64,000 nt of DNA. It comes from a bacterium. Lineage in GTDB: Bacteria; SAR324; XYD2-FULL-50-16. A program made the translations under genes and the position numbers. This document shows, piece after piece, positions 4,523-61,650 of this stretch. The stretch covers positions 76,679-140,678 of the forward strand of contig JAJRZQ010000002.1 in assembly GCA_024275165.1 (NCBI GenBank). The letters run 5' to 3'. A model generated the notes under the pieces. The model was not told the origin of the DNA. It did no database searches and saw only the letters and a program-made list of their open reading frames with translations. Within the stretch, counting starts at the first letter, position 1, and each line of letters begins with the position of its first letter.

Positions 4523-4606
4523 AACCCGCTAACTTGTCGTTTGGTTTTTCAGAGCTTTTTTCTCTTGGCATAGCACAACGGGACGCAAGTCCATTATGGG
4601 AGGCTT

Positions 4607-6946
4607 ATGCCAAAGAAACTGATGCTCGTCAGTGTCACTGACGACGAAACCCGCATTGCAATTGTCGAAGACAATCTGCTGCAAGAGCTCTTAATCGAGC
4701 ATCAAAATAGAGAACAAAACAAAGGGAATATCTACAAGGGGCGAGTTGTCCAGGTCCAGACAGCGGTGCAGGCCGCTTTTGTGGATTATGGGCAAAAACG
4801 CCACGGCTTTTTACCTCTTTCTGAAGTGAACCCCGAGGTCATTGGCAGCAAGAAGGAAAAAAGAGGCCGCGCTCGCTTGGAAGAGGGTCAGGATGTCTTG
4901 GTTCAGGTAACCCGCGAAGAGGTCGATCATAAAGGGGCGGCCTTGACCACGAACCTATCCCTGGCGGGAAGATATATGGTCATGATGCCCCATACCGACA
5001 AGGGGGGCGTCTCCAAACGCATCAGTGATCCCGATGAGCGAGAGCGCCTTAAAGGGTTCCTGGCCGGTATCGGGCAAGAGGCGCATTCGGTCATTATCCG
5101 CACCGCGGGGATGCACCGGGATTTGAGCGAGCTGAAAAAGGACTACACCCAGGTGAAACGCCTGTGGGAAGAAATCAAATCTCGCTACGAGGCTCAGGTC
5201 AAACCCAGCTTGGTTCACGAGGAATTAGATGTCATCACCCGCAGCTTGCGTGACTACTACAATGAAGAGATTGACGAGGTTTGGGTCGACCAGCCCGAAT
5301 CCTTCCAAAAGGTGCTGGCCTTTTTAAAGGAAAACGCCCCCCGGCGGCAAAAAGACCTAAAGCTTTTTGTCGGGGATCGCAGCCTGTTTGCGACCTACAA
5401 TATCGAAAAACAGGTAGAGCAGTTGACCAGCCGCAAGGTCAAGCTGCGTTCTGGCGGCTCTATCGTGATCGACCAAACCGAGGCCTTAGTGGCCATTGAT
5501 GTGAATTCGGGCCGCTCCAACCAAGAATCCAATGTGGAAAACACGGCCCTGCGCACCAACCTGGAGGCCGCCGCGGAGGTGGCCCGGCAGTTGCGCTTGC
5601 GTAATTTAGGCGGGATCATCGTGGTTGATTTTATCGACATGGATAAAGCTTCTTCGAAAGCAGAGGTGGAGGCGGTAATGGCCGAAGCCTTTGAAAGGGA
5701 CCGGGCGCAGAATAAAATCGGGCACATCTCTGAATTCGGCTTGATGGAAATCAGCCGTCAGCGGATGGCCCAACGGATTTCCAGCGTGATTGAATCCGAG
5801 TGCCCCTTTTGTCAGGGCAAGGGCATGGTGCCCTCCTTGTTGGCTAGCGCCAATCTGATTTTGCGCACGATCCGTGAATACGCCGCCAAGGGCGGGGTCT
5901 CCTCGATTTCGGGCGAGCTTCCCCTAGAGGTGGCCAACCACTTGCTCAACGAACGGCGGCAGTTTTTGATGGATCTTGAGATGGAATTTGGGATCATCAT
6001 TTCTTTGCTCGGCAATCCGGCGCTGTTTATTTTTGATGAGCGCAACTTAAAGGTTTTCAATGAAGAAGGGCAGGTGATTTCTTCGGGCGTGGTCGGGGGC
6101 AGCGGTAGCCGTCGCCGTGGTCGTCGTGGTCGCCGTAGAGAAGAAGAGCCAGAGGTGGCCAAAGAGTCGGAGGAAGTAGATGAAGAAAGCCTCAGCCAAG
6201 AAGAGGAAAGCAGTGAAGAGGCAGACCGCCCCAAAAAGCACCGTAGGAGAAAACGCCGCCGTCGAGGGGAGCGCGAGCAGGAGGAAGGGGTAGAACTCGA
6301 ACTCGAAGCAACGGCAACTGCCGAGGGCGAACCCGAAGCCCTAGAGGAAGAACCGCCCACTCCGAAGCGCGAGCGGCAAACAGCCTTGAAGGAAGAAGAG
6401 GAGGAGGACGATTCCTTTTATGCCGGCTTTGCCAACGAACAGGCCCCCATTCATCCGGGGTGTCTTTTTCCGGAGGTTCGTGAAATTGATGATGTCTTTC
6501 GTCAAGAGGTAGCGGAGTCCTTTTATCAAAGATTGAGGGGGAAAGCCAAGGGGCAGCCCCCCAGGCGGATTGGAGAGCGGTTTTTATGGCGCGCCGTACC
6601 CGCGTCTCTAAAGGCGCGGGAAGAGGCTCCGGCTAAGGGAAAAAAGTCGCCTTCCCAGGGGGAGGAAGAAAGCCCGAAACCTCCGAAAAAAAGAGCGACA
6701 AAGGCCGCGACTAAAAAGAAGGAAACGCTTCCAGAGGATCAAACCCAACCCGAGGCGCAGGCAAAGCCCAAGCGAGCCCCCAGGAAAAAGGCCGTCGCGG
6801 TGAAAGCAGCCCCAGAGGGGGAGGAAAAACCCAAGCGAGCCCCCAGGAAAAAGGCCGTCGCGGTGAAAGCAGCCCCAGAGGGGGAGGAAAAACCCAAGCG
6901 AGCCCCCAGGAAAAAGGCCGCTGCCAAAGGGGAAAAGAAGGAGTGA
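4607..6946 (+). CDS. ribonuclease E/G family endoribonuclease with long low-complexity basic/acidic C-terminal tail
   Basis: N-terminal S1 + RNase E/G catalytic core (MLVSVTDDETRIAIVED..., DQTEALVAIDVNSG), zinc-link CPFCQGKG; tail with E/S-rich and K/P/A-rich repeats. Confidence 0.85.
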   Translation: MPKKLMLVSVTDDETRIAIVEDNLLQELLIEHQNREQNKGNIYKGRVVQVQTAVQAAFVDYGQKRHGFLPLSEVNPEVIGSKKEKRGRARLEEGQDVLVQVTREEVDHKGAALTTNLSLAGRYMVMMPHTDKGGVSKRISDPDERERLKGFLAGIGQEAHSVIIRTAGMHRDLSELKKDYTQVKRLWEEIKSRYEAQVKPSLVHEELDVITRSLRDYYNEEIDEVWVDQPESFQKVLAFLKENAPRRQKDLKLFVGDRSLFATYNIEKQVEQLTSRKVKLRSGGSIVIDQTEALVAIDVNSGRSNQESNVENTALRTNLEAAAEVARQLRLRNLGGIIVVDFIDMDKASSKAEVEAVMAEAFERDRAQNKIGHISEFGLMEISRQRMAQRISSVIESECPFCQGKGMVPSLLASANLILRTIREYAAKGGVSSISGELPLEVANHLLNERRQFLMDLEMEFGIIISLLGNPALFIFDERNLKVFNEEGQVISSGVVGGSGSRRRGRRGRRREEEPEVAKESEEVDEESLSQEEESSEEADRPKKHRRRKRRRRGEREQEEGVELELEATATAEGEPEALEEEPPTPKRERQTALKEEEEEDDSFYAGFANEQAPIHPGCLFPEVREIDDVFRQEVAESFYQRLRGKAKGQPPRRIGERFLWRAVPASLKAREEAPAKGKKSPSQGEEESPKPPKKRATKAATKKKETLPEDQTQPEAQAKPKRAPRKKAVAVKAAPEGEEKPKRAPRKKAVAVKAAPEGEEKPKRAPRKKAAAKGEKKE
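6767..6925 (+). repeat. three tandem 63-bp repeats inside the RNase E/G tail encoding KPKRAPRKKAVAVKAAPEGEE
   Basis: unit 'cccaagcgagcccccaggaaaaaggccgtcgcggtgaaagcagccccagagggggaggaaaaa' starts at 6767, 6830, 6893 (third copy diverges). Confidence 0.9.
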
Positions 6947-8373: not shown

Positions 8374-8700
8374 ATGCCTGCACCTACTCATCATTTTTTT
8401 CTTTGTACCAATCAACGCCCTCCGGGTCACCCTAAAGGTTCTTGCGCTTCCTTGGGGAGTCATCCCACCTTTGAACGCTTTATTCAGAATTTAGAGGAAA
8501 AAAACCTTTGGGGTAAGATGAAGGTGACTTCGACCGGTTGCATGGGCCCTTGCATGGCCGGCCCGGTGCTGGTTTGTTACCCCGAGGGAATTTGGTATCA
8601 GGGGGTTCAGCCTCAAGATGTCGATGAAATCGTAGAAAAGCATGTCTTGGGCGGAGAGCCGGTGCAACGCTTATTGATGGACCCGAACCTCGTCGGTTAG
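8374..8700 (+). CDS. thioredoxin-like [2Fe-2S] ferredoxin-domain protein
   Basis: four Cys in CxxxxxC...C...C spacing (C24/C41...CMGPCMAGPV), ~108 aa, matches NuoE/thioredoxin-like Fd family. Confidence 0.6.
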   Translation: MPAPTHHFFLCTNQRPPGHPKGSCASLGSHPTFERFIQNLEEKNLWGKMKVTSTGCMGPCMAGPVLVCYPEGIWYQGVQPQDVDEIVEKHVLGGEPVQRLLMDPNLVG

Positions 8701-8729
8701 GGTTTTTTCGTTCAGGGAGGAACGATCAA

Positions 8730-8762
8730 AGCCCCTGGGGACTCCTCAGGGGCTTTTTTTTG
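8730..8762 (+). terminator. rho-independent terminator after ferredoxin gene
   Basis: agcccctg gggactcct caggggct + T9. Confidence 0.75.
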
Positions 8763-8794
8763 TCTAAGATGAAGGCAAGCGCGGGGTTTTTTAC

Positions 8795-9002
8795 GGAAAC
8801 TCTGAAAACGCAGAGGTTCCCAGCAAGGCAGGGATGCCTGGCCAACTCAAAAAGCGCGACTTCTTGATTCGCGTTGGGATTGTGGATTTCATTCCCCCCC
8901 GAAAAGACCGAAAAACTCAATGCGCCCCGGGGGCTATAATCAGCCCGAAGGGCACGAGCCTACCGCTTGAACAAGCGGTAGGCAAGGAGTTTTTCAGAGG
9001 TT
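8795..9002 (+). repeat. MITE-like repeat element copy A (hairpin termini)
   Basis: ~85-90% identical to the reverse complement of 61440-61650; begins with hairpin ggaaactctgaaaacgcagaggttcc and ends ...cctaccgcttgaacaagcggtagg...ggagtttttcagaggtt. Confidence 0.8.
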
Positions 9003-9004
9003 TT

Positions 9005-9469
9005 TTAAGTCCCCATAACCGTATGCCAAAGCTCTTCATCGACATTATCCATAAATTGGCAGCCGATCAAAAACTGGTCGCCTCGGTCCACCACCCGCCG
9101 AACCTGCATCTCAAATTCCATGACTAAAATTTCACCGGCCGCGTCGTATTTGAAGGTCGCGGTGATGAGTTGGTCTGTGTCAAAGGTGTGATCCGCAAAA
9201 AAACTCAAGCCCCCAGCAGAGTAGTCGTTTAAATCGTATGCCGATTCTTGATCCGTATGGTTGTCGATCAAGGTGATCTGACCCGTCGCCTTAAAGCGTT
9301 TGTGGGCGCGCAAGCCCTCGTAATAGGCGTCGTCTTGCTCTTCCTTGCTGGTTGGGGGAGTGGATTCAGAATCTAAAAAGGTAATAATGACTTCACTATT
9401 TTCTTCCAGCTCTAAAGAGTTGGCGAGTTGAATGCGGCCATGCGTGTAGATGCCTTTGACGGTGATCAT
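9005..9469 (-). CDS. PilZ-domain (c-di-GMP binding) protein with N-terminal DUF104-like domain
   Basis: RAHKRF (RxxxR) and DYSAGGLSF (DxSxGG) motifs. Confidence 0.65.
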   Translation of the reverse strand: MITVKGIYTHGRIQLANSLELEENSEVIITFLDSESTPPTSKEEQDDAYYEGLRAHKRFKATGQITLIDNHTDQESAYDLNDYSAGGLSFFADHTFDTDQLITATFKYDAAGEILVMEFEMQVRRVVDRGDQFLIGCQFMDNVDEELWHTVMGT

Positions 9470-12659: not shown

Positions 12660-15008
12660 ATGTCAAAATTCGTAAAAACTTGGGCAAATTTAGTGGTGGA
12701 AAAAAGAGGCTGGGTCATCGGCTTGACCCTGTTGTTGCTCTTTGCCTCCTTAGTGCCCATGAGAGGGCTCTATTTTGATAATTCCAACGAGATGTGGTTT
12801 GTCCAAGGCGACCCCGCCTTAACAGATTATGATGAACTGGTGGAAAAGTTCGGCGACAATGAATATGTCTTGGTGGGCATCGCCGCCAGGGAGGAAGACC
12901 CCGATATTTTTACCGCCCAAACATTTGACATCATTTATAAACTTACCGAGTTTTTGGAAAATCACAACTTTGTCACCAAGGTTCAATCTTTAACCAAGTA
13001 TCAGGTTATTCGGGGGGAAGACGATGAAATGGTGGTCGAGGATTTGGTTGCCGATAGCTTAGAAGATTTTGACGGCAGTGAGCAGGCGATGCAAAAGGCC
13101 CGCGAGATCATGGCCCATGAAACCTTGGCCCAGGGGCAGTTGATCACCAAGGACTTAAGGCATACCTTAATCAGCGCGCGAGCCGAGTATATTAAAGGCA
13201 GCACGGATCATCATGTGAAGCTGACCCGGGATTTAAAAAAGTTTATCGCGGAGCAAGAATTTGAAAAGTACGGTTATAAGATCTACTTGACCGGCACCCC
13301 TGTGGTCAATGAGGCCTTTTTTGCGGCCAGCATGGCAGACCAAAGTTTAAGCCTGCCCTTAATGTTCATTCTGATTATCGCTTTTTTGGTTTTTAGTTTT
13401 CGCACCCTGGCGGGGGCGACCTTGCCCCTTTTGGTGATTGTGGGTTCGGTGCTGCTCAGCGTGGCTTCCATCAGCTTGTTTGGCTGGGCCATGAATATGC
13501 TCAATGTGGTATTGCCCGTGATCTTAATGGCCGTAGGAATCGGGGATTCGGTGCATATTTTAATTGAGTTTTATCACTTTCGCAATCAAGGGGAAAATGC
13601 CAAAGAAGCGGCCAAAAAGGCCACGGAGATGCTTTTTGTCCCCTGTTTAAATACCAGCATCACCACCATGTTGGGTTTTTTGGCGATCAGCGTTTCAAAG
13701 TTGAGGCCCTTAAACGAGTTTGGGGTTGCCGCCTCCATTGGGGTCGGGATGGCGTTTATCTTGAGCGTAAGCATTTTGCCCGCTATCTTAAGTTTTTCTC
13801 AAGGCAAGGCGAATAAGGCTCGGCAAATCAGTGAAGATGGCTTCATCGCCCGGATGACCGATAGGCTGACCCATTATGTCTTTCGTCATCGCAAGGGGAT
13901 TGTGGGGGTTTGCCTGCTTTTGGTCGGGCTTTCGCTCTGGAGTGCCACCAGAATTGTCGTTGATTCCAACTTCATCAATTATTTTAAGGAAAAGAACGCA
14001 ACCCGACAAGATTTGGAATACTTTATCCAAGAGTATAACGGGGGGGTGTTTTTAGAATACATTTTCGATTCCGGTCGAAGCGCGAGCGAAGAAAAGAGTG
14101 GCGGTGCCTTAGAGCCGGCCTTGCTTACTCAAATCGACGCCTTTGCCACTTGGCTGAAACAACAACCCGAGGTGGGCAATACCTTCAGCATGGTGGATAT
14201 GCTCCAACAGATGAATCAGGCCATGCACGGCAATGATCCGGCTTATCGTATTCTGCCCGATTCTCGGCAGTTGGTTGCCCAGTACTTGCTGCTCTATTCC
14301 AACTCCGGCCCCGATGAAGACTTGTCGGACATGAAAACGGGAGACGAAAGGTATTTACGCCTCTCCCAGCGCTTGGATCATATGTCTTCAAATAAAATGC
14401 TGGGCTTTATAGAGCGAGTGAAGAAGAAGCTGGCAAGCGACTTCCCTCAATTGCAGGTGACCTTAACGGGGATGCCGGTACTCTATACCGATATGGACGC
14501 CTATATTCACAGTGGGATTATAAAATCCATGACCTTAGCGATTATCTCCATTGCCATCTGCTTTTTGGTGCTGTTGCGCTCCTTTAAGTATGGGGTTTTG
14601 GCGCTCATTCCCAGCCTGTTCCCGATTGTGTTGGCAGCGGGCTTGATGGGGGCGATGAGGGTGAACCTCAACTTTATCGCCATGGTGGTGGCTTCGGTTG
14701 CCTTTGGGATTGCCGTAGACAACTCGATCCATATTCTCAGCCGTTACATTAAACACCGCAAAAGGGAGGGGCGCGGCCGCTTTGACGCGATGGATACGGC
14801 GGTGAGCGAAACCGGTAGGGCCTTGGCCTTTACCACGATGATTCTCTTTTTTGGGTTCAGTATTTTAATGATTTCCACCTTTATCCCGAACATTTATTTG
14901 GGGTTTTTTACAGGGGTGATCTTGCTGATGGCGCTGATAGCCAGTTTGACCCTTTTGCCCGCGGTGATGTTCCTTTTTGGAGATTCCCCAGGCAAGAAGT
15001 CCTCTTAA
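12660..15008 (+). CDS. MMPL/RND-superfamily inner-membrane transporter (paralogue 2)
   Basis: 782 aa, same architecture as upstream paralogue (AVGIGDSVHIL, AFGIAVDNSIHIL). Confidence 0.8.
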   Translation: MSKFVKTWANLVVEKRGWVIGLTLLLLFASLVPMRGLYFDNSNEMWFVQGDPALTDYDELVEKFGDNEYVLVGIAAREEDPDIFTAQTFDIIYKLTEFLENHNFVTKVQSLTKYQVIRGEDDEMVVEDLVADSLEDFDGSEQAMQKAREIMAHETLAQGQLITKDLRHTLISARAEYIKGSTDHHVKLTRDLKKFIAEQEFEKYGYKIYLTGTPVVNEAFFAASMADQSLSLPLMFILIIAFLVFSFRTLAGATLPLLVIVGSVLLSVASISLFGWAMNMLNVVLPVILMAVGIGDSVHILIEFYHFRNQGENAKEAAKKATEMLFVPCLNTSITTMLGFLAISVSKLRPLNEFGVAASIGVGMAFILSVSILPAILSFSQGKANKARQISEDGFIARMTDRLTHYVFRHRKGIVGVCLLLVGLSLWSATRIVVDSNFINYFKEKNATRQDLEYFIQEYNGGVFLEYIFDSGRSASEEKSGGALEPALLTQIDAFATWLKQQPEVGNTFSMVDMLQQMNQAMHGNDPAYRILPDSRQLVAQYLLLYSNSGPDEDLSDMKTGDERYLRLSQRLDHMSSNKMLGFIERVKKKLASDFPQLQVTLTGMPVLYTDMDAYIHSGIIKSMTLAIISIAICFLVLLRSFKYGVLALIPSLFPIVLAAGLMGAMRVNLNFIAMVVASVAFGIAVDNSIHILSRYIKHRKREGRGRFDAMDTAVSETGRALAFTTMILFFGFSILMISTFIPNIYLGFFTGVILLMALIASLTLLPAVMFLFGDSPGKKSS

Positions 15009-15054
15009 ACCGCTTCTGAATTGATCAGAGGTTTTTTTAACCCTAACCACAAAG

Positions 15055-18958: not shown

Positions 18959-19470
18959 TGGTTTTCCTTTAAGGTTAGGGGCAGACCCGAGACCATGAAG
19001 AGGACGCGGTCAGCCCGTTGGGCGATTTCTTGATTGAGCCGTCCCATTTCGTCACGAAATCGGCGGGATAGGGCTTCTGTGGGGACCAGGCCTAAGCCTA
19101 GCTCATTGGTTACAAAGATCAATTCCCCTGGCAGGGGCCGATTCAGCAGGCTCAAGAGGTCGTAAATCTCTTGTTTTCTGCGCTTTTCGGACTCTCCAAA
19201 AAGGTTGGAAAGCCAAAGGGTGAGGCAATCGACCAGTACCACGGCGCTTTTGGGGGCTGTGGCTTGTATGGCTTGGGCCAGGGCGAGGGGCTCTTCGATG
19301 ACATGCCAGTTGGCACCGCGCTCGGCTCGGTGCAAGGCGATGCGTTGGGCCATTTCTTCATCTAGGGCCTGGGCGGTGGCAATGAGGGTTTGGGGTTCTT
19401 TTCCTTGAGCCAGGTCTAGGGCTTTTTGGCTTTTGCCGGAACGGGCGCCCCCGGTGAGTAGAGTGATCAT
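18955..19470 (-). CDS. cobU: adenosylcobinamide kinase/adenosylcobinamide-phosphate guanylyltransferase
   Basis: P-loop LLTGGARSGKS; start taken at MITLLTGG (ORF opens at 19500). Confidence 0.85.
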   Translation of the reverse strand: MITLLTGGARSGKSQKALDLAQGKEPQTLIATAQALDEEMAQRIALHRAERGANWHVIEEPLALAQAIQATAPKSAVVLVDCLTLWLSNLFGESEKRRKQEIYDLLSLLNRPLPGELIFVTNELGLGLVPTEALSRRFRDEMGRLNQEIAQRADRVLFMVSGLPLTLKENQ

Positions 19471-20216
19471 AAGCCGTTGAAGTTTGCCCAGACAAACCAT
19501 AATAAGGTTAAAATTTCAGTAACTTCACCAGCGGCCCCTAAGAGGTCTCCGGTGATTCCGCCGAGGCGCCGCTGGGCCAAAAAGCCAACCCCTTCGGTGC
19601 TCACCAGGGCCATCAGTAGGGCGCCTCCCCCGACCATTCCAAAGGGCCAAGCGCAGGCCAGGGCCCCGGCCCAGGCAAGGCCGGCCTGCCAAAGCTTAGC
19701 CTGGTCCACCCAGTTTTTCCCCGTACCAGAGCGGTTGGCGTAGTTTTGCCGGTAAGCGAGCCAAGCCATGCCCGCCCGGGAAGCGGGCAGCAGGCTCAAG
19801 AGCCACCAAACCTGCCCCCCTTGCAGCAGCAAAACGAGCAATTGCCATTTGAGGGTTAGGGCAAAAAAGAGGGAGATCACCCCAAAGCTGCCTAAACGAG
19901 GGTCTTTGAGGATCAACAACCGTTCGCTTTTTGGTTTTAGGGCGAAAAGGCCGTCGGCCGCGTCGGCTAAGCCATCAAGGTGCATGGAGCCGGTCAAGAG
20001 GCTCCACAATAGAAGGAGCAGCAGAGCCAATAGACTAGGGGGAAGCTCAGAAGAAAGGGCGGTTGCCAGGGAAGCCAAAATCGAGCCTAGGCCTAAACCG
20101 ATCCAGGGGAACCAAGGTAAGGCTTGCTGCACCGGGCTAGAGCGAGGAGGAAAAAAGGGGATCGCCGTCAGGGTCGAAAAAGCGGTCAGAAAGGAGTCCA
20201 CCAGAGGCCTTATCAT
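19467..20216 (-). CDS. cobS: adenosylcobinamide-GDP ribazoletransferase (cobalamin synthase)
   Basis: multi-TM 249 aa protein with conserved DGLAD(A)ADG motif, operon with cobU/cobT. Confidence 0.85.
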   Translation of the reverse strand: MIRPLVDSFLTAFSTLTAIPFFPPRSSPVQQALPWFPWIGLGLGSILASLATALSSELPPSLLALLLLLLWSLLTGSMHLDGLADAADGLFALKPKSERLLILKDPRLGSFGVISLFFALTLKWQLLVLLLQGGQVWWLLSLLPASRAGMAWLAYRQNYANRSGTGKNWVDQAKLWQAGLAWAGALACAWPFGMVGGGALLMALVSTEGVGFLAQRRLGGITGDLLGAAGEVTEILTLLWFVWANFNGL

Positions 20217-20254: not shown

Positions 20255-20410
20255 ACGAGGGGTTGATGCCTTAAGGCTTTGACGGGCTCTGACTTATCCT
20301 CATGGGGGACTTACAGTTGCGGGCCAGTGAGGGATTTACACCCTGCTTCACCGTCTTGAAAAATCAAGCTAGCGGTTTTCTGGAGGGGAGTCAAACCCCT
20401 TGTCCGAAAA
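20255..20410 (-). promoter_or_regulatory. cobalamin (AdoCbl) riboswitch in 5' leader of cobS-cobU-cobT
   Basis: minus-strand sequence GGTGTAAATCCCTCACTGGCCCGCAACTGTAAG...AAGTCAGAGCCCGTC matches the conserved cobalamin riboswitch core (GGTGnnAAnTCC..CnGnCCCGCaACnGTAA) and B12-box-like AGTCAGA..CC; SD GGAGG lies immediately downstream. Confidence 0.8.
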
Positions 20411-20436: not shown

Positions 20437-20480
20437 GGAACCTCTGAAAAAGTCCATCCTTGGACTTTTTCAGCTTTGGC
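20437..20480. repeat. palindromic hairpin sharing the MITE terminal motif (ggaacctctgaaaaa)
   Basis: ggaacctctGAAAAAGTCCAtccTTGGACTTTTTCagc; first 15 nt identical to 61440-61454. Confidence 0.7.
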
Positions 20481-20608
20481 GATTAGGGAGTGAATTCTTG
20501 ATCACCCAACAAATCAATTCACTTTGTGCATTGATTTGGCGGAGCGGGCCTGCCTCGCAAGGCAACTCGGAGTTTTTCCCTCAACCTTGAATCCATTTTT
20601 TTTGAATT

Positions 20609-21283
20609 ATGAACGCCTATAGCCTACACAATCATACTTTTCGTTGCCAACACGCGGTGGGCGATGTCGCGGAACTAGCCCAAGCGGCCCTGAAAGGGGG
20701 TTGCCGGGTCTTAGGGGTTTCGGATCACACCCCCTTGCCGGATCACCAATGGCCCACGGTACGCATGGGCATGGATGAATTGGACGGCTATTGCCAAGCG
20801 ATTGACCAGGGGCGGATTGATTTTCCCTCGTTGAGGATTTTAAAAGGAATGGAATGCGAGTGGTCAAAGGAGTACCAAGCCTTTTATCAAGAGGAACTGT
20901 TCGGCAAACGAAGCTTTGATTATCTCATTGGCGCGGGGCATTTTTATCAAATTGGAGGGGAATGGCATAGCGGGTTTACCGACTTGAGCGGGGCCAAGGA
21001 ATTGCGGGCCTATGCCGAGTGGCTGACCCAGATGATGCAAAGCGGGATCTTTGCCTTTATTGCCCACCCCGATTTATTTGGTTGTTGCAACGAGGCCTGG
21101 AACCCCGACTTAGCGGCCTGTTCCCATGATATTCTCAGTGCTGCCGCGGCGACCCAGACCCCTTTAGAGATCAATGCCAACGGCTTTCGTAAAGCTTGGC
21201 GCGCCCCTGGTGGGGGCAGAAGTTGTCCCTATCCTTGGGAGCCTTTTGGGAGTTGGCGGGGGAATATTCCCTTCAGGTTTTAA
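20609..21283 (+). CDS. PHP-family phosphatase (HisJ-like histidinol-phosphatase family), apparently frameshifted near 21200
   Basis: N-term YSLHNHTFRCQHA...GVSDHTP; conserved C-terminal ISADAHHP lies in a different frame (21196-21387). Confidence 0.6.
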   Translation: MNAYSLHNHTFRCQHAVGDVAELAQAALKGGCRVLGVSDHTPLPDHQWPTVRMGMDELDGYCQAIDQGRIDFPSLRILKGMECEWSKEYQAFYQEELFGKRSFDYLIGAGHFYQIGGEWHSGFTDLSGAKELRAYAEWLTQMMQSGIFAFIAHPDLFGCCNEAWNPDLAACSHDILSAAAATQTPLEINANGFRKAWRAPGGGRSCPYPWEPFGSWRGNIPFRF

Positions 21284-21491
21284 TCAGCGCGGACGCCCAT
21301 CATCCCAAGCAACTTTTCACCGAGCTGGAACCCTGTTATTCTTTATCCCATCGTTTTGGTTTGAAGTTGTGGCGGGGGTTAGAATAAAAATGTGGGTGTA
21401 TACAGGGTTTGCAGCCCTTTTCTAGGTTATTTCTTGCAAAGCCATGCTATAGCTTGCTATGGAAGTAGAGAGACTTAATAACGCATGAGCC

Positions 21492-24868: not shown

Positions 24869-25153
24869 ATGAGTAAAGTGACGAAGGCAGACCTGATTCA
24901 GGATGTTGCCGGTAAAGTAGGATTATCTAAAACCCAAACTGAAAAAACCATTAACGCTATTTTTGAAGGCTTGACGGGGGCCATGTCCAGTCAGCGCAAA
25001 ATCGCTTTGGTCGGCTTTGGGACTTTTTACACAGCCCAGCGCGCCGCTCGTGAAGGGTTAAACCCTCAGACGGGAAAGCGGATTCAGATTCCTTCTGCTA
25101 AAGTGGCAAAGTTTCGTGTAGGGAAAAACTTGAAAGAAGCGGTGAATGCTTAA
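24869..25153 (+). CDS. hup: HU family DNA-binding protein
   Basis: MSKVTKADLIQDVAGK...INAIFEG...GFGTF...R.AREGLNPQTG..I.IPS motif pattern; RBS gagagg. Confidence 0.9.
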   Translation: MSKVTKADLIQDVAGKVGLSKTQTEKTINAIFEGLTGAMSSQRKIALVGFGTFYTAQRAAREGLNPQTGKRIQIPSAKVAKFRVGKNLKEAVNA

Positions 25154-25354
25154 TAGAGTTTTGAAAAATTCCCACTTACCTTTGATAAAGAAGAGAGTTG
25201 TATCCCCTTTCTGAGTCTGTTGGTGGGGGGGAATCTATTTTTAAGTCCAATGAAGTTGAAATTAAAAGAGGATGGGAAATAAAATTTTCTATCCTCTTGC
25301 AAATCAAAACGACTCATTTTTGGATTGGGCAACCCCTCTCTGGGTTGCCTAGAA

Positions 25355-25385
25355 ACCTCTGCATACTCAGAGGTTCCTCAATTGA
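25355..25385. repeat. isolated hairpin related to the MITE 5' terminus
   Basis: gaaacctctg-catact-cagaggttcc, cf. ggaaactctg-aaaacg-cagaggttcc at 8795. Confidence 0.55.
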
Positions 25386-50716: not shown

Positions 50717-51236
50717 AGGGGTATATATTGAGGGCGGAGCAGAGCTTTTTTTATGTTTCCTCCTATAAAATAGCTCAACTTGGGCCGGGAGACCAAGAAA
50801 TAATTGGTCAAAATATCAACAGGAACAGGAGGAGGTGTAGGTGGATAATGCCTATGATAACAAATTATTACAATAAAACCCTAGGTAAATATACAAAACA
50901 AATACCCTAGGGGGAACACCGGATTGAAAAAAAATCGTCTTCAGGAATCAGGAAGTGAATTTCTAATCGCTAAACAAATCAATGTATTTTGCTTTTGATT
51001 TGGGGTTGATTCGGTACCCATAGTATTTCTATGCAAGCTGGCCTGATCTAGGAGAAGCCTACAGCCCGCTACCGCGGTCGGCGGGGCGGCTCGCGCGGGC
51101 GCTCGCCGGGTATAAGCGCCCCCGCAATTTTAATATGCTCCGCAGGCCGGGGCTGAAAGCCCCAGACCCCAGTGGTTTTTTAGATTGGGAACCATACACA
51201 CGCCGGATTTATAAACCATCTCTGGCCTTGCAAGAA

Positions 51237-51257
51237 ACTCTGAGTTTTTCAGAGTTG
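51237..51257. repeat. hairpin aactctga-gtttt-tcagagtt related to the repeat family; possible fliQ terminator
   Basis: perfect 8-bp inverted repeat immediately 3' of fliQ. Confidence 0.5.
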
Positions 51258-51259
51258 CT

Positions 51260-51532
51260 TTAAAAACCGAGATAAAAAGGAATGTTGTTGAACACCTTGG
51301 CCATGTATTCGGTGGCGGTGCTTAAAAACCAGGGGAGGAAGAGCATCAAGGCGATCATCACCCCGGCCATCTTGGGGATAATCGCTAAAGTCATTTCTTG
51401 AATTTGCGTTACTGCCTGAAAAATCGAGACCAACAAACCTAAAACCAGCGCGATTAAAAGCAGCGGAGCGGCCAACTTGGTGGCCACCAGCATGGCCTCG
51501 CTCGCTAGGGTAATCACCAGTTCGGGGGTCAT
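51260..51532 (-). CDS. fliQ: flagellar export apparatus protein FliQ
   Basis: 90 aa two-TM protein typical of FliQ. Confidence 0.85.
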   Translation of the reverse strand: MTPELVITLASEAMLVATKLAAPLLLIALVLGLLVSIFQAVTQIQEMTLAIIPKMAGVMIALMLFLPWFLSTATEYMAKVFNNIPFYLGF

Positions 51533-55779: not shown

Positions 55780-57504
55780 GTGGCAATCATGAGCGACTTG
55801 AGCGGTAAGCTGATTCAGCGCTTGAGCAAGGAAACGGAAAAAAATGAAGGGGAATTGGCAGAGCTCTATGCCCAGGCGAGAGAGAAAAACCGCCCCTTTT
55901 CAGAATGGGGGGAAAAAGCCAAGGCCTTTACCCCTACCCAGTACCAAAAGGCCTTGAGTCAAACCTTGGGCCTCGATTTTTTAGAAGACCTACCCGAACT
56001 TTCAGAAGCGCAACGGGAAAAATTTACCGAGGCGATTCCCATTCGTTTTGCGAAAAAATTCTTATTTTATCCCATTTTCGCGGGGGAGGAACTCTGGTTT
56101 GTCACCGCCAAGTCCTGGCCGATCGGGCATTTGGAAGAGGCGGCTCAGGCCTTGGGGTTTTCTCGTTTTCACCTGCGTTTGGCTACGGAGGGGGCCATTA
56201 TCGAAGCGATCAACAAAAGCTTTGACCGCACGGGAGGGAGTGCCGAGGAAGCGGCAGAGGTGTTGGAAGAAGACGAGGAATTTGCCCATTTGGGCCAGTT
56301 GGAAGAAGTGGAAGACCTACTGGACGCGCAAGATGAAGAACCCATTAAAAAATTAATGAATTCTATTTTGTTTCAATCGGTTAAAGAAGGCAGTTCTGAT
56401 GTGCATATTGACCCGACAGCAAAAAACACCCTGGTGCGCAATCGGGTGGATGGGATTTTGCGCCAGGTCGCCTCGGTGCCTAAAGCGGGCCATATCCCCT
56501 TGGTGAACCGGATTAAGGTCATGGCGGGGTTGGACATTTCCACCAAGAATCAACCCCAAGACGGGCGCAGCATGGTTTTATTGGGGGGGAAAAAGGTCGA
56601 TATTCGCGTTTCCGTCATCCCCACAGTACATGGCGAGCGGGCCGTGTTGCGCTTGCTGAATCAAAGCCAGGGAATTAAAAGCCTAGAGCGGATCGGTTTT
56701 TTGCCTGAAATGGCGCGGCAGATTCAAAAAGAATTGTCGCGCCCCCATGGGATTTTGCTGGTCACCGGCCCAACGGGCTCGGGTAAAACCACCACCCTCT
56801 ATTCCGCCTTGAACTTGATTGACGCGGAAGAAAAGAATGTGGTCACGATTGAAGACCCGGTGGAATACCGCATCTCGCAATATGGGCAGATGCAGGTGAA
56901 CGAAAAGATCGGGGTTACCTTTGCCAAGGGGTTGCGCTCCATGTTGCGCCAAGACCCCGATGTCATCATGGTGGGGGAGATGCGTGATTCGGAAACAGCT
57001 CAAATCGCCATTCAGGCCGCCTTGACCGGGCATTTGGTTTTAAGCACCCTGCACACCAACGATGCGCCCTCTTCCATTGTGCGCTTGATTGATATGGGGA
57101 TCGAGCCTTTTTTGGTCTCTTCGACCCTCTCTGCTATTTTAGCCCAGCGCTTGGTGCGCAAAATTTGCCAAAAATGCAAAAAAGAATACAAGCTCTCAGA
57201 TGAAGAGTTGGAGCAGCTCAACCTGCCTCAAGAGGCAAAAAAAATCCTGCGAGGTACTATTTATAAAGGAGTTGGGTGCAAAAACTGCATAGGTACGGGC
57301 TACCAGGGAAGAGTCGGGGTATTTGAGCTGTTGCTCATGAATGACGAGGTTCGCGCCGCCGTGGCATCTTCAGCCGATTCCAATCAAATCAGAGAGCTTG
57401 CCTTAAAAAGCGGGATGACCCCTTTGGTGGTGGATGTAGCCTACAAGGTGGCCGCGGGGGAAACAAGTCTGGAAGAGATGTTGCGCGTCTTTTATGTGGT
57501 TTAG
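55780..57504 (+). CDS. GspE/PilB/MshE-family secretion ATPase (orphan)
   Basis: T2SSE_N domain, Walker A GPTGSGKTTT, Walker B/Asp box, tetracysteine CQKC...CKNC. Confidence 0.85.
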   Translation: MAIMSDLSGKLIQRLSKETEKNEGELAELYAQAREKNRPFSEWGEKAKAFTPTQYQKALSQTLGLDFLEDLPELSEAQREKFTEAIPIRFAKKFLFYPIFAGEELWFVTAKSWPIGHLEEAAQALGFSRFHLRLATEGAIIEAINKSFDRTGGSAEEAAEVLEEDEEFAHLGQLEEVEDLLDAQDEEPIKKLMNSILFQSVKEGSSDVHIDPTAKNTLVRNRVDGILRQVASVPKAGHIPLVNRIKVMAGLDISTKNQPQDGRSMVLLGGKKVDIRVSVIPTVHGERAVLRLLNQSQGIKSLERIGFLPEMARQIQKELSRPHGILLVTGPTGSGKTTTLYSALNLIDAEEKNVVTIEDPVEYRISQYGQMQVNEKIGVTFAKGLRSMLRQDPDVIMVGEMRDSETAQIAIQAALTGHLVLSTLHTNDAPSSIVRLIDMGIEPFLVSSTLSAILAQRLVRKICQKCKKEYKLSDEELEQLNLPQEAKKILRGTIYKGVGCKNCIGTGYQGRVGVFELLLMNDEVRAAVASSADSNQIRELALKSGMTPLVVDVAYKVAAGETSLEEMLRVFYVV

Positions 57505-57656
57505 TTCCCTCTGGATTTCTTGATTTTAGAAGTACTGAAAAATTCATTTCTCGACCCTGAAAAATTGAATAAGTCTAAGTATGGACTGGTGTAGAGGTTT
57601 TTTCCTTTCAAACGAAAGGGCCTAGTGTGGCCCCTTTTCTATTTCGCGGTTAAGTC

Positions 57657-61439: not shown

Positions 61440-61650
61440 GGAACCTCTGAAAAACTCCCTGCCTACCGCTTGTTCAAGCGGTAGGTTCGTGCCCTGCGGG
61501 CTGATGATAGCCCTTGGGGCGCGTCAAATTTTTCCGTCTTTTTGGTGGGGAATGAAATCCACAATCCCAACGCGAATCCATAAGTCGCGCTTTTTGCTTT
61601 GGCAAGGCATCCCTGCCTTGCGGGGAAACTCCGCGTTTTTCAGAGTTTCC
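61440..61650 (-). repeat. MITE-like repeat element copy B (inverted relative to copy A)
   Basis: reverse complement aligns to 8795-9002 over its whole length (~85-90% id) including both terminal hairpins. Confidence 0.8.

What the first reader, a model, noticed from the sequence alone, without database searches (positions are those of the whole stretch)
20437..20480. Solo terminal hairpins of the same repeat family at three further intergenic sites
The 15-mer ggaacctctgaaaaa that starts copy B recurs at 20437, embedded in a perfect palindrome ggaacctctGAAAAAGTCCAtccTTGGACTTTTTCagc between the riboswitch and the divergent PHP gene. A variant of the 5' hairpin (gaaacctctg-catact-cagaggttcc) occurs alone at 25355-25385 after the HU gene. 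A further variant (aactctga-gtttt-tcagagtt) sits immediately 3' of fliQ at 51237-51257. The hairpins may act as REP-like terminators, as transposition footprints, or as recombination/target sites for the element.
Basis: seen in the sequence. Interest (0 to 1): 0.5.

Follow-up and report, generated by a model that had tools for sequence, protein, structure and literature searches.

The report
Ends of decayed IS5-type MITE copies
The three "solo hairpins" are the terminal hairpins of older, diverged copies of a small non-coding transposon (a MITE derived from an IS5-family insertion sequence), an ordinary kind of bacterial repeat that is also common in many Gammaproteobacteria.

Summary
The three sequences exist within a few bases of the stated coordinates, are real hairpins, and belong to the same repeat family as the two 211-nt copies (8795-9004 and 61440-61650). 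They are not solo. A covariance model built only from copies in other genomes matches full-length units at 20437-20581 (-, E=6e-13) and 25230-25377 (-, E=7e-17). The hairpins at 20437 and 25352 are the right and left ends of these units. The hairpin at 51233-51259 is the left end of a more decayed copy.

The family is a roughly 150-nt MITE made of five hairpins, abundant in Gammaproteobacteria MAGs. Its ends (GGAACCTCTGAAnAAGTCC) match the inverted repeat of an IS5-family insertion sequence on Achromobacter plasmid pA81, including the subterminal palindrome seen at 20444-20473. Copies are flanked by 4-bp duplications (TTAA, CTAA, CTAG and others), the known IS5 target type.

These targets contain TAA or TAG, which explains why several window copies sit directly on stop codons, fliQ among them. 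Syntenic DNA from SAR324-related relatives lacks the element. This is an ordinary mobile-element finding and a new member of a known kind.

The parts
20437..20581 (-). Copy C. A near full-length diverged MITE unit (HP2 to HP5 present, first arm of HP1 deleted). It lies between the cobalamin-riboswitch/cobS leader and the PHP gene start at 20609.
   Evidence: The covariance model R1, built from external copies only, gives 45.5 bits, E=6.4e-13, model positions 1-151. The external nhmmer profile gives E=1.6e-9 and ends exactly at 20437. The A/B profile gives E=1.3e-6.
20437..20478 (-). The finding's site 1. This is the right terminus of copy C: the terminal repeat GGAACCTCTGAAAAAGTCC plus the subterminal palindrome HP5 (20444-20473).
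   Evidence: It is 18/19 identical to the inverted repeat of the IS5-family IS on pA81, GGAACCTCTGAACAAGTCC, which is followed there by the same kind of palindrome. The fold is -18.5 kcal/mol, z=-4.3.
25230..25377 (-). Copy D. A full-length diverged MITE unit, 77 nt downstream of the HU gene.
   Evidence: Model R1 gives 57.9 bits, E=7.5e-17, model positions 1-151. The A/B profile gives E=6.5e-8. HP1, HP2 and HP4 fold as in the family; z=-5.0.
25352..25377 (-). The finding's site 2. This is HP1, the left terminal hairpin of copy D: GGAACCTCTG-AGTATG-CAGAGGTTTC.
51216..51259 (-). The finding's site 3. This is HP1 plus the start of HP2 of a decayed copy (E1). It abuts TTAA at 51260-51263, which contains the fliQ stop codon. 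Its inner boundary is uncertain.
   Evidence: The A/B profile gives E=5e-4. blastn against copy B shows 83% identity over 41 nt, E=2.7e-4. A 40-nt direct repeat links it to 61608-61647 (D16). Model R1 gives only 15.4 bits, which is at the noise level seen in relatives.
50947..51007 (-). Fragment E2. An HP3-HP4 segment that resembles copy C. It belongs either to the same decayed element as E1 or to a second one.
   Evidence: It is 74-76% identical to 20482-20539, E=1e-5 (D12).
8795..9004 (+). Copy A. The 211-nt variant of the family. It is flanked by TTAC on the left and TTAA on the right, and the TTAA contains the PilZ gene stop codon.
   Evidence: It is 89% identical to copy B. Its HP1-HP2-HP3 region matches the external profile at E=7e-4.
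61440..61650 (-). Copy B. The 211-nt variant, flanked by a perfect TATA/TATA duplication.
   Evidence: I25. Model R1 gives 29.6 bits, E=6.5e-8, over HP1-HP3.
57505..57605 (+). Copy F. A degenerate copy that resembles copy C (right half recognisable). It starts directly after TTAG, which contains the stop codon of the GspE-like gene.
   Evidence: blastn of copy C against 57520-57608 gives 67% identity over 90 nt, E=1e-5. Sequence. The match to the external profile is weak, E=5.4.
15009..15036 (+). Site G. Probably a truly solo HP1 hairpin between two TTAA tetranucleotides; the left TTAA contains the stop codon of the upstream MMPL gene. A run of seven T follows, so it looks like a terminator.
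   Evidence: It is 20/21 identical to the external HP1 variant AACCTCTGATCAATTCAGAGG. It is flagged terminator-like. The statistics are weak: nhmmer E=0.36 and model R1 E=1.3.

Best explanation

The canonical unit is about 150 nt and has no ORF. It consists of five hairpins:
- HP1 at the left end: GGAACCTCTGA-loop-TCAGAGGTTCC, that is, the terminal repeat folded back on itself.
- HP2, with the loop (C)AGGGA(T)G.
- HP3 and HP4.
- HP5 at the right end: CTCTGAnAAGTCC-AGGA-TGGACTTnTTCAGAG, followed by the terminal CTTCC.

The two ends form a terminal inverted repeat, GGAAsCTCTGAAnAAGTCC. An IS5-family DDE transposase encoded elsewhere would bind this repeat and insert the element at Py-T-A-Pu-like tetranucleotides, duplicating 4 bp (inferred, not shown here). 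These targets contain TAA or TAG, so copies often land exactly on a stop codon and regenerate it. This explains the position immediately 3' of fliQ.

After insertion the copies decay. Copy C has lost one arm of HP1, copy D has a decayed HP5, and only HP1 of copy E remains clearly recognisable.

Solo HP1 hairpins do exist, at window 15009-15036 and in other genomes. The simplest origin is a deletion between the 10-bp direct repeats CAGAGGTTCC (second arm of HP1) and CAGAGCTTCC (right end). This is inferred.
For: - Extended homology beyond the hairpins is seen with the A/B profile.
- Independent profiles built only from other genomes also match. nhmmer gives E=1.6e-9 for copy C and 3.8e-5 for copy D. 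The covariance model gives 45.5 bits (E=6.4e-13) for C and 57.9 bits (E=7.5e-17) for D, both full length.
My own calculation puts the chance expectation at about 35. The hits are almost all Gammaproteobacteria MAGs, often several per genome, and show the same HP1-HP2-HP3-HP4-HP5 layout.
- 23 of 37 external units have perfect 4-bp flanking duplications: TTAA 9, CTAA 3, CTGG 2, ATAA 2, and CTAG, CTTA and CTTT among the rest. This matches the Py-T-A-Pu target reported for IS5 (PMC5493358).
- An IS5-family IS on plasmid pA81 (NC_006830.1) is 1199 bp long and flanked by a CTAG duplication. Its transposase is 59% identical to E. coli InsH. It ends in GGAACCTCTGAACAAGTCCTCTGGACCTGTCAGA, the MITE terminus with its HP5-type palindrome.
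- The right inverted repeat of E. coli IS5 is GGAAGGTGCGAACAAGTCC, identical to the MITE's right end at 16 of 19 positions.
- In the window, copy B has a TATA/TATA duplication and copy A has TTAC/TTAA. Copies A, E1, F and site G abut stop codons inside TTAA or TTAG.
- About 58 kb of syntenic DNA from SAR324-related MAGs has no copy. The cobS-PHP spacer there is 133 nt shorter than in the window, close to the 145 nt of copy C.
Against: - No IS5-family transposase gene lies in the 64-kb window (tblastn). The rest of the source genome could not be read, so a partner able to mobilise the copies is not shown.
- Copies C, D and E lack recognisable target duplications, which is expected for old copies but is not positive evidence.
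- The 211-nt variant (A and B) has an internal region and a right end without the left arm of HP5. That region is not found in the external copies.
- Copy E is supported only by moderate statistics.
- 28 of 56 stem pairs show compensatory changes. A simple transposase-binding model does not require this, so it remains unexplained.
Confidence: 0.88

Rival explanations
1. The three sites are truly isolated hairpins, REP-like elements or solo terminal repeats, kept because they act as transcription terminators or mRNA stabilisers.
For: - All three fold stably.
- 51233-51259 lies directly after fliQ, and 25352-25377 lies between convergent genes.
- A solo HP1 with a T-run does exist at 15012-15032 and is flagged terminator-like.
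- Solo HP1 hairpins flanked by TTAA exist in other genomes.
Against: - Flanking homology shows that sites 1 and 2 sit inside full-length units.
- 20444-20473 lies between divergently transcribed genes, so it has nothing to terminate.
- The hairpins at 25352 and 51233 lack a T-run and are not flagged.
- Terminator-like sites overall are not more frequent than in shuffles (36 against 28.7 +/- 6).
- There is no GTAG-type REP head, and target duplications are present.
Confidence: 0.05
2. The roughly 150-nt unit is primarily a multi-copy structured non-coding RNA gene, and the hairpins are conserved for an RNA function rather than for mobility.
For: - RNAalifold on 21 external copies gives five helices, and 28 of 56 pairs show compensatory changes.
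- Copies C and D keep HP2 and HP4 with different stem sequences.
- Whole units fold better than shuffles, z=-3.8 and -5.0.
Against: - There is no Rfam match in the window or in external loci.
- Copies occur in both orientations relative to their neighbours, and no conserved promoter or terminator was seen.
- The 4-bp target duplications and the identity of the ends with an IS5-family inverted repeat show mobility.
- Copy number per genome varies, and syntenic relatives lack the element.
- Window copies are visibly decaying.
Confidence: 0.05
3. The resemblances are chance matches of short AT-rich palindromes.
For: The 10-mer alone with up to 1 mismatch is only weakly enriched: 14 matches against 8.6 expected, and 4 of 100 shuffles reach 14.
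Against: - An exact 15-mer is shared, and up to 2 mismatches gives 6 matches against 0.39 expected.
- Profile and covariance-model E-values go down to 1e-17.
Confidence: 0.01

Closest known systems
IS5-family insertion sequences (E. coli IS5; the 1199-bp IS5-family IS on Achromobacter xylosoxidans plasmid pA81, NC_006830.1)
   Same: - The terminal inverted repeat matches. The pA81 IS ends in GGAACCTCTGAACAAGTCC followed by a palindrome; the window site reads GGAACCTCTGAAAAAGTCC followed by a palindrome.
- The right inverted repeat of E. coli IS5 is GGAAGGTGCGAACAAGTCC.
- Both make 4-bp target duplications of the Py-T-A-Pu type.
   Different: - The window elements are 145-211 nt and have no transposase gene.
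- Their left end is a fold-back hairpin of the terminal repeat (HP1), which the IS lacks.
- Three internal hairpins replace the coding region.
Bacterial MITEs that share ends with an IS (for example the P. fluorescens R0/R2 repeats, Correia elements, ERIC, RUP; reviews PMC3184786 and PMC10969869)
   Same: They are small, non-coding, multi-copy, intergenic and bounded by terminal inverted repeats. They have target duplications and fold into stable stem-loops. Mobilisation in trans is inferred.
   Different: - The terminal sequence and the duplication differ: Correia duplicates TA and Chunjie 9 bp, whereas this family duplicates 4 bp of the YTAR type.
- The five-hairpin modular layout with the conserved AGGGA loop was not found in the literature I could search.
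REP/BIME elements mobilised by RAYT transposases
   Same: Both are short intergenic palindromes, often between convergent genes, and can occur singly or in composite units.
   Different: REPs have a conserved GTAG-type head, no terminal inverted repeats spanning a unit, and no target duplication. They are associated with a Y1 transposase. None of this is seen here.

Membership tests
MITE derived from an IS5-family insertion sequence | Terminal inverted repeats matching those of an IS5-family IS | tested here: met
   The terminus of copy C, GGAACCTCTGAAAAAGTCC, is 18/19 identical to the pA81 IS inverted repeat, and a palindrome follows in both. The external MITE right end matches the right inverted repeat of E. 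coli IS5 at 16 of 19 positions. The pA81 transposase is 59% identical to InsH.
MITE derived from an IS5-family insertion sequence | 4-bp target-site duplication with a Py-T-A-Pu preference | tested here: met
   23 of 37 external units have perfect 4-bp duplications, dominated by TTAA, CTAA and CTAG; see PMC5493358. In the window, copy B has TATA/TATA, copy A has TTAC/TTAA and site G has TTAA/TTAA. Copies C, D and E have none left.
MITE derived from an IS5-family insertion sequence | Small, non-coding and multi-copy | tested here: met
   Units are 145-211 nt. Six to nine copies or fragments lie in 64 kb. No transposase homology was found in the window.
MITE derived from an IS5-family insertion sequence | A cognate autonomous IS or transposase in the same genome | not testable with these tools
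   The source genome beyond the window is not retrievable. No candidate lies in the window or in the 120 external loci.
MITE derived from an IS5-family insertion sequence | Presence/absence polymorphism at orthologous sites | tested here: inconclusive
   Syntenic SAR324-related contigs lack the element, and their cobS-PHP spacer is 133 nt shorter. The relatives are too distant (LeuS about 74% identical) for base-level alignment of the empty site.
REP/BIME (RAYT-associated) | A 20-40-nt imperfect palindrome with a conserved GTAG-type head, no terminal inverted repeats and no target duplication | tested here: not met
   The hairpins begin with GGAA. Units are bounded by inverted repeats and flanked by 4-bp duplications.
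Intrinsic terminator | A G+C-rich stem followed by a T-run, downstream of a gene on the same strand | tested here: not met
   The hairpins at 25352 and 51233 are not flagged. 20473-20444 is flagged, but no gene reads into it. Only the extra site 15012-15032 fits.
Known RNA family (Rfam) | A match at or above the gathering score | tested here: not met
   There were no hits in the window or in six external loci that carry canonical copies.

The most novel reading that the evidence does not exclude
The five-hairpin architecture is kept by compensatory changes across Gammaproteobacteria and a SAR324-related genome. It may therefore be functionally required, either as single-stranded DNA or cruciform structure needed for mobilisation by this IS5 subgroup, or as a structured RNA module that hosts co-opt as a terminator or stabiliser. 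That would make this an undescribed, cross-phylum structured MITE class rather than a passive deletion derivative.
Probability: 0.15. Interest if true: 0.5.

Novelty: new member of a known kind. Interest (0 to 1): 0.25.

Why it matters
- **Annotation:** six to nine intergenic features in this window, including the three reported hairpins and the two long copies, reduce to one mobile-element family. They should not be annotated as terminators, small RNAs or regulatory palindromes.
- **Stop-codon placement:** the IS5-type target (YTAR) contains TAA or TAG, which explains why copies sit exactly on stop codons.
- **Possible regulatory effect:** copy C lies 28 nt upstream of the PHP gene start and next to the leader of the cobalamin-riboswitch operon, so it may have rewired both promoters. 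This is not tested.
- **Evolution:** the element is present in a SAR324-related genome, absent from its syntenic relatives and abundant in Gammaproteobacteria. This points to horizontal acquisition of an IS5-family element.

Tried and rejected
- Scans of genome contigs and metagenome contigs with the most conserved internal 20-mer of copies A and B gave 0 hits and 6 chance hits respectively.
- Exact-protein look-ups of window genes found nothing, and P0001 (100% identical to the window's PHP protein) could not be located on a contig. The source genome is therefore not readable.
- Rfam gave no hits at gathering level in the window or in external loci. The only weak hit over the hairpin (TD-2, E=1.3) was dismissed.
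- A literature search for the terminal 11-mers returned only unrelated primer sequences. Three keyword searches found no description of this family.
- I looked among the 120 external loci for an autonomous IS, using inverted terminal repeats 0.7-3 kb apart. The intervening ORFs are ordinary genes: a TonB-dependent receptor, an SPFH protein, BirA-like and PhoR-like proteins.
- A possible extra fragment at 8679-8765 was suggested by an odd covariance-model alignment (25.9 bits). It is probably just the terminator of the upstream gene joined to HP1 of copy A, because generic terminators in relatives reach 17.6 bits.
- My first guess that copy D runs to the HU stop codon at 25155 was replaced by the model-defined end at 25230.
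- A TTAC (IS608-like) target and a TA (IS630-like) target were considered for copies A and B. Both were dropped once the 4-bp duplications were seen.

Full report
**Observation**

The 15-mer GGAACCTCTGAAAAA occurs exactly at 20437 and at 61440, the start of the 211-nt copy B. Allowing two mismatches gives six matches against 0.39 expected by chance.

- At 20444-20473 it runs into a 13-bp/4-nt palindrome, CTGAAAAAGTCCA-TCCT-TGGACTTTTTCAG.
- A second hairpin, GAAACCTCTG-CATACT-CAGAGGTTCC, lies at 25352-25377.
- A third, AGAAACTCTG-AGTTTTT-CAGAGTTGCT, lies at 51233-51259, directly after the stop codon of the fliQ-like gene at 51260-51532 (-).

All three fold better than shuffled sequence. The context is also as described. 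cobS (19467-20216, -) is preceded by a sub-threshold AdoCbl-II riboswitch match at 20275-20370 (31.6 bits, E=1.8e-5). A PHP-domain gene starts at 20609 (+), and an HU gene ends at 25153.

**The hairpins are not solo**

Copies A (8795-9004, +) and B (61440-61650, -) are 89% identical. An nhmmer profile of these two extends the similarity far beyond the hairpins:
- 25377->25272, model positions 1-106, E=6.5e-8.
- 20578->20462, model positions 10-126, E=1.3e-6.
- 51257->51216, E=5e-4.

Sensitive blastn added three further relations:
- A fragment resembling copy C at 50947-51007, E=1e-5.
- A degenerate copy at 57505-57605, E=1e-5.
- A possible right-end remnant at 4544-4561, E=0.28.

**The family outside the window**

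The source genome cannot be read. Exact-protein look-ups fail, and a conserved internal 20-mer gives nothing in genome contigs and only chance hits in metagenomes.

My calculation for 596 Gb gives at most about 35 chance matches. The hits are almost all Gammaproteobacteria MAGs (Lysobacterales, Chromatiales, Acidiferrobacterales, Pseudomonadales, Ahniella, Thermomonas), often with several hits per genome.

When the hits are oriented the same way, they show one unit of about 151 nt:
- HP1: GGAACCTCTGA-TTAAG-TCAGAGGTTCC.
- HP2: GCGGCACA-GGGA-TGTGCCGC.
- HP3: AAAATCAATGAC...GTCATTGATTTT.
- HP4: GCAAAACAAAAAT...ATTTTTGTTTTGC.
- HP5: CTCTGACAAGTCC-AGGA-TGGACTTGTTCAGAG, followed by the terminal CTTCC.

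RNAalifold on 21 copies predicts these five helices. 28 of 56 pairs show compensatory changes. Rfam has no such family.

**Independent confirmation in the window**

Profiles built only from the external copies were searched against the window.
- nhmmer gives 20575->20437 at E=1.6e-9, with the model end falling exactly at 20437, and 25377->25260 at E=3.8e-5.
- The covariance model R1, run without filters, gives full-length matches at 25230-25377 (-, 57.9 bits, E=7.5e-17) and 20437-20581 (-, 45.5 bits, E=6.4e-13). It also matches the HP1-HP3 part of copy B at 29.6 bits.

The finding's site 1 is therefore the right terminus (terminal repeat plus HP5) of copy C. Site 2 is HP1 of copy D. Site 3 is HP1 of a decayed copy. 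For site 3 the covariance model alone is not decisive: it scores 15.4 bits, while generic terminator hairpins in unrelated DNA reach 17.6 bits. The call for site 3 rests on the A/B profile and blastn matches.

**What kind of element it is**

23 of 37 delimited external units carry perfect 4-bp flanking duplications: TTAA 9, CTAA 3, CTGG 2, ATAA 2, with CTAG, CTTA and CTTT among the rest. IS5 duplicates a Py-T-A-Pu tetranucleotide, and its recorded targets include CTAG, CTAA, TTAG, CTTA, CTTT, TTAA and CTGG (PMC5493358).

A BLAST of the unit consensus against plasmids hit the end of an annotated IS5-family element on Achromobacter xylosoxidans pA81. That IS has these properties:
- It is 1199 bp long and flanked by a CTAG duplication.
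- It encodes a 322-aa transposase 59% identical to E. coli InsH.
- It ends in GGAACCTCTGAACAAGTCC-TCT-GGACCTGTCAGA on one side and GGAAGGTCTGAACAAGGCG on the other.

The first of these ends is the MITE terminus with its HP5-type palindrome. The window sequence at 20437, GGAACCTCTGAAAAAGTCC-ATCCT-TGGACTTTTTCAG, matches it at 18 of the first 19 positions. The right inverted repeat of E. coli IS5 is GGAAGGTGCGAACAAGTCC. The elements are thus non-autonomous derivatives of an IS5-family IS.

No IS5-type transposase lies in the window or between paired ends in the external loci. Mobilisation in trans is therefore inferred, not shown.

**Window anatomy and consequences**

- Copy B is flanked by TATA/TATA (I25).
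- Copy A is flanked by TTAC/TTAA.
- Four copies abut a stop codon contained in the target tetranucleotide:
  - Copy A's right flank, TTAA at 9005-9008, holds the PilZ gene stop.
  - Copy E1's flank, TTAA at 51260-51263, holds the fliQ stop.
  - Site G's flank, TTAA at 15005-15008, holds the MMPL gene stop.
  - Copy F's flank, TTAG at 57501-57504, holds the GspE-like gene stop.

This follows from the target preference, because YTAR contains TAA or TAG and the duplication regenerates the stop. It explains the position "immediately 3' of fliQ" without invoking a terminator function.

The terminator scan flags only 15012-15032 (followed by seven T) and 20473-20444 (-). The latter lies between divergently transcribed genes, so nothing reads into it. 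The hairpins at 25352 and 51233 are not flagged.

**Solo hairpins**

Site 15009-15036 looks like a real solo HP1. It is 20/21 identical to an external HP1 variant and lies between two TTAA tetranucleotides. External genomes also contain solo HP1 hairpins with TTAA/TTAA or ATAA/ATAA flanks (L045, L055, L092, L116). The second arm of HP1 (CAGAGGTTCC) and the right end (CAGAGCTTCC) are direct repeats, so a deletion between them would leave exactly such a solo hairpin with its duplication. This origin is inferred.

**Host and history**

LeuS is 73-74% identical to that of SAR324-cluster MAGs. A SAR324 contig (GCA_033791585.1) is syntenic with the window over more than 20 kb.

About 58 kb of syntenic DNA from two relatives contains no copy by covariance model or nhmmer. 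The cobS-PHP spacer is 259 nt in the relative against 392 nt in the window, a difference close to the 145 nt of copy C. The family therefore appears to have entered this lineage after its split from those relatives. That fits horizontal acquisition of an IS5-family element from, or shared with, Gammaproteobacteria.

**Verdict**

The hairpins are ends of diverged IS5-type MITE copies. This is a well-known kind of element. The particular five-hairpin family was not found in Rfam or in the searchable literature, so it counts as a new member of a known kind. The one feature left unexplained is why all five stems are maintained by compensatory changes across distant hosts.

Noticed in passing
It lies between two TTAA tetranucleotides, directly after the stop codon of the MMPL-family gene 12660-15008. 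A run of seven T follows, so it looks like an intrinsic terminator.
   Followed up: partly
window 20609-21283: The PHP-domain (histidinol-phosphatase-like) ORF is 224 aa. Its homologues are 260-270 aa. It aligns to residues 1-219 of the SAR324 homologue and then stops, so it may carry a C-terminal frameshift or truncation. The overlapping ORF 21174-21425 is not homologous in its own frame.
   Followed up: partly
window 20275-20370 (-): A cobalamin riboswitch candidate upstream of cobS. It is below Rfam's gathering score (AdoCbl-II, 31.6 bits against 36.5, E=1.8e-5). The stretch is the best-conserved part of the intergenic region in the SAR324 relative.
   Followed up: partly
window 51010-51190: Inside the long 50717-51259 intergenic region lies a stretch with very high G+C (about 51040-51125). 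It is followed by the hairpin GGGGCTGAAAGCCCC and a T-run at 51150-51183. It sits between the two MITE fragments and its nature is unknown. There is no Rfam hit.
   Followed up: no
window 6749-6937: Three tandem 63-nt repeats (71-100% identical) lie inside the C-terminal part of the RNase E/G gene 4607-6946. They encode a repeated lysine/proline/alanine-rich segment.
   Followed up: no
window 4544-4561: GGTTTTTCAGAGCTTTTTT, upstream of the RNase E gene, matches the MITE right end at 17 of 18 positions (E=0.28). It may be another terminal remnant.
   Followed up: no
L007, L040, L104, L119 (Pseudomonadales MAG); L089, L118: Some external copies are 222 nt long, with extra HP2-like hairpins (GGGCACAyGGATGTGCCC) nested in the HP4 region. 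Others form head-to-tail tandems. This suggests the family grows by duplicating or inserting hairpin modules.
   Followed up: no
window 8795-9004 and 61440-61650: The 211-nt variant (copies A and B) has an internal region, including the perfect palindrome CCTACCGCTTGAACAAGCGGTAGG. This region has no counterpart in the external 151-nt units or in the syntenic relatives. Its origin is unknown.
   Followed up: partly
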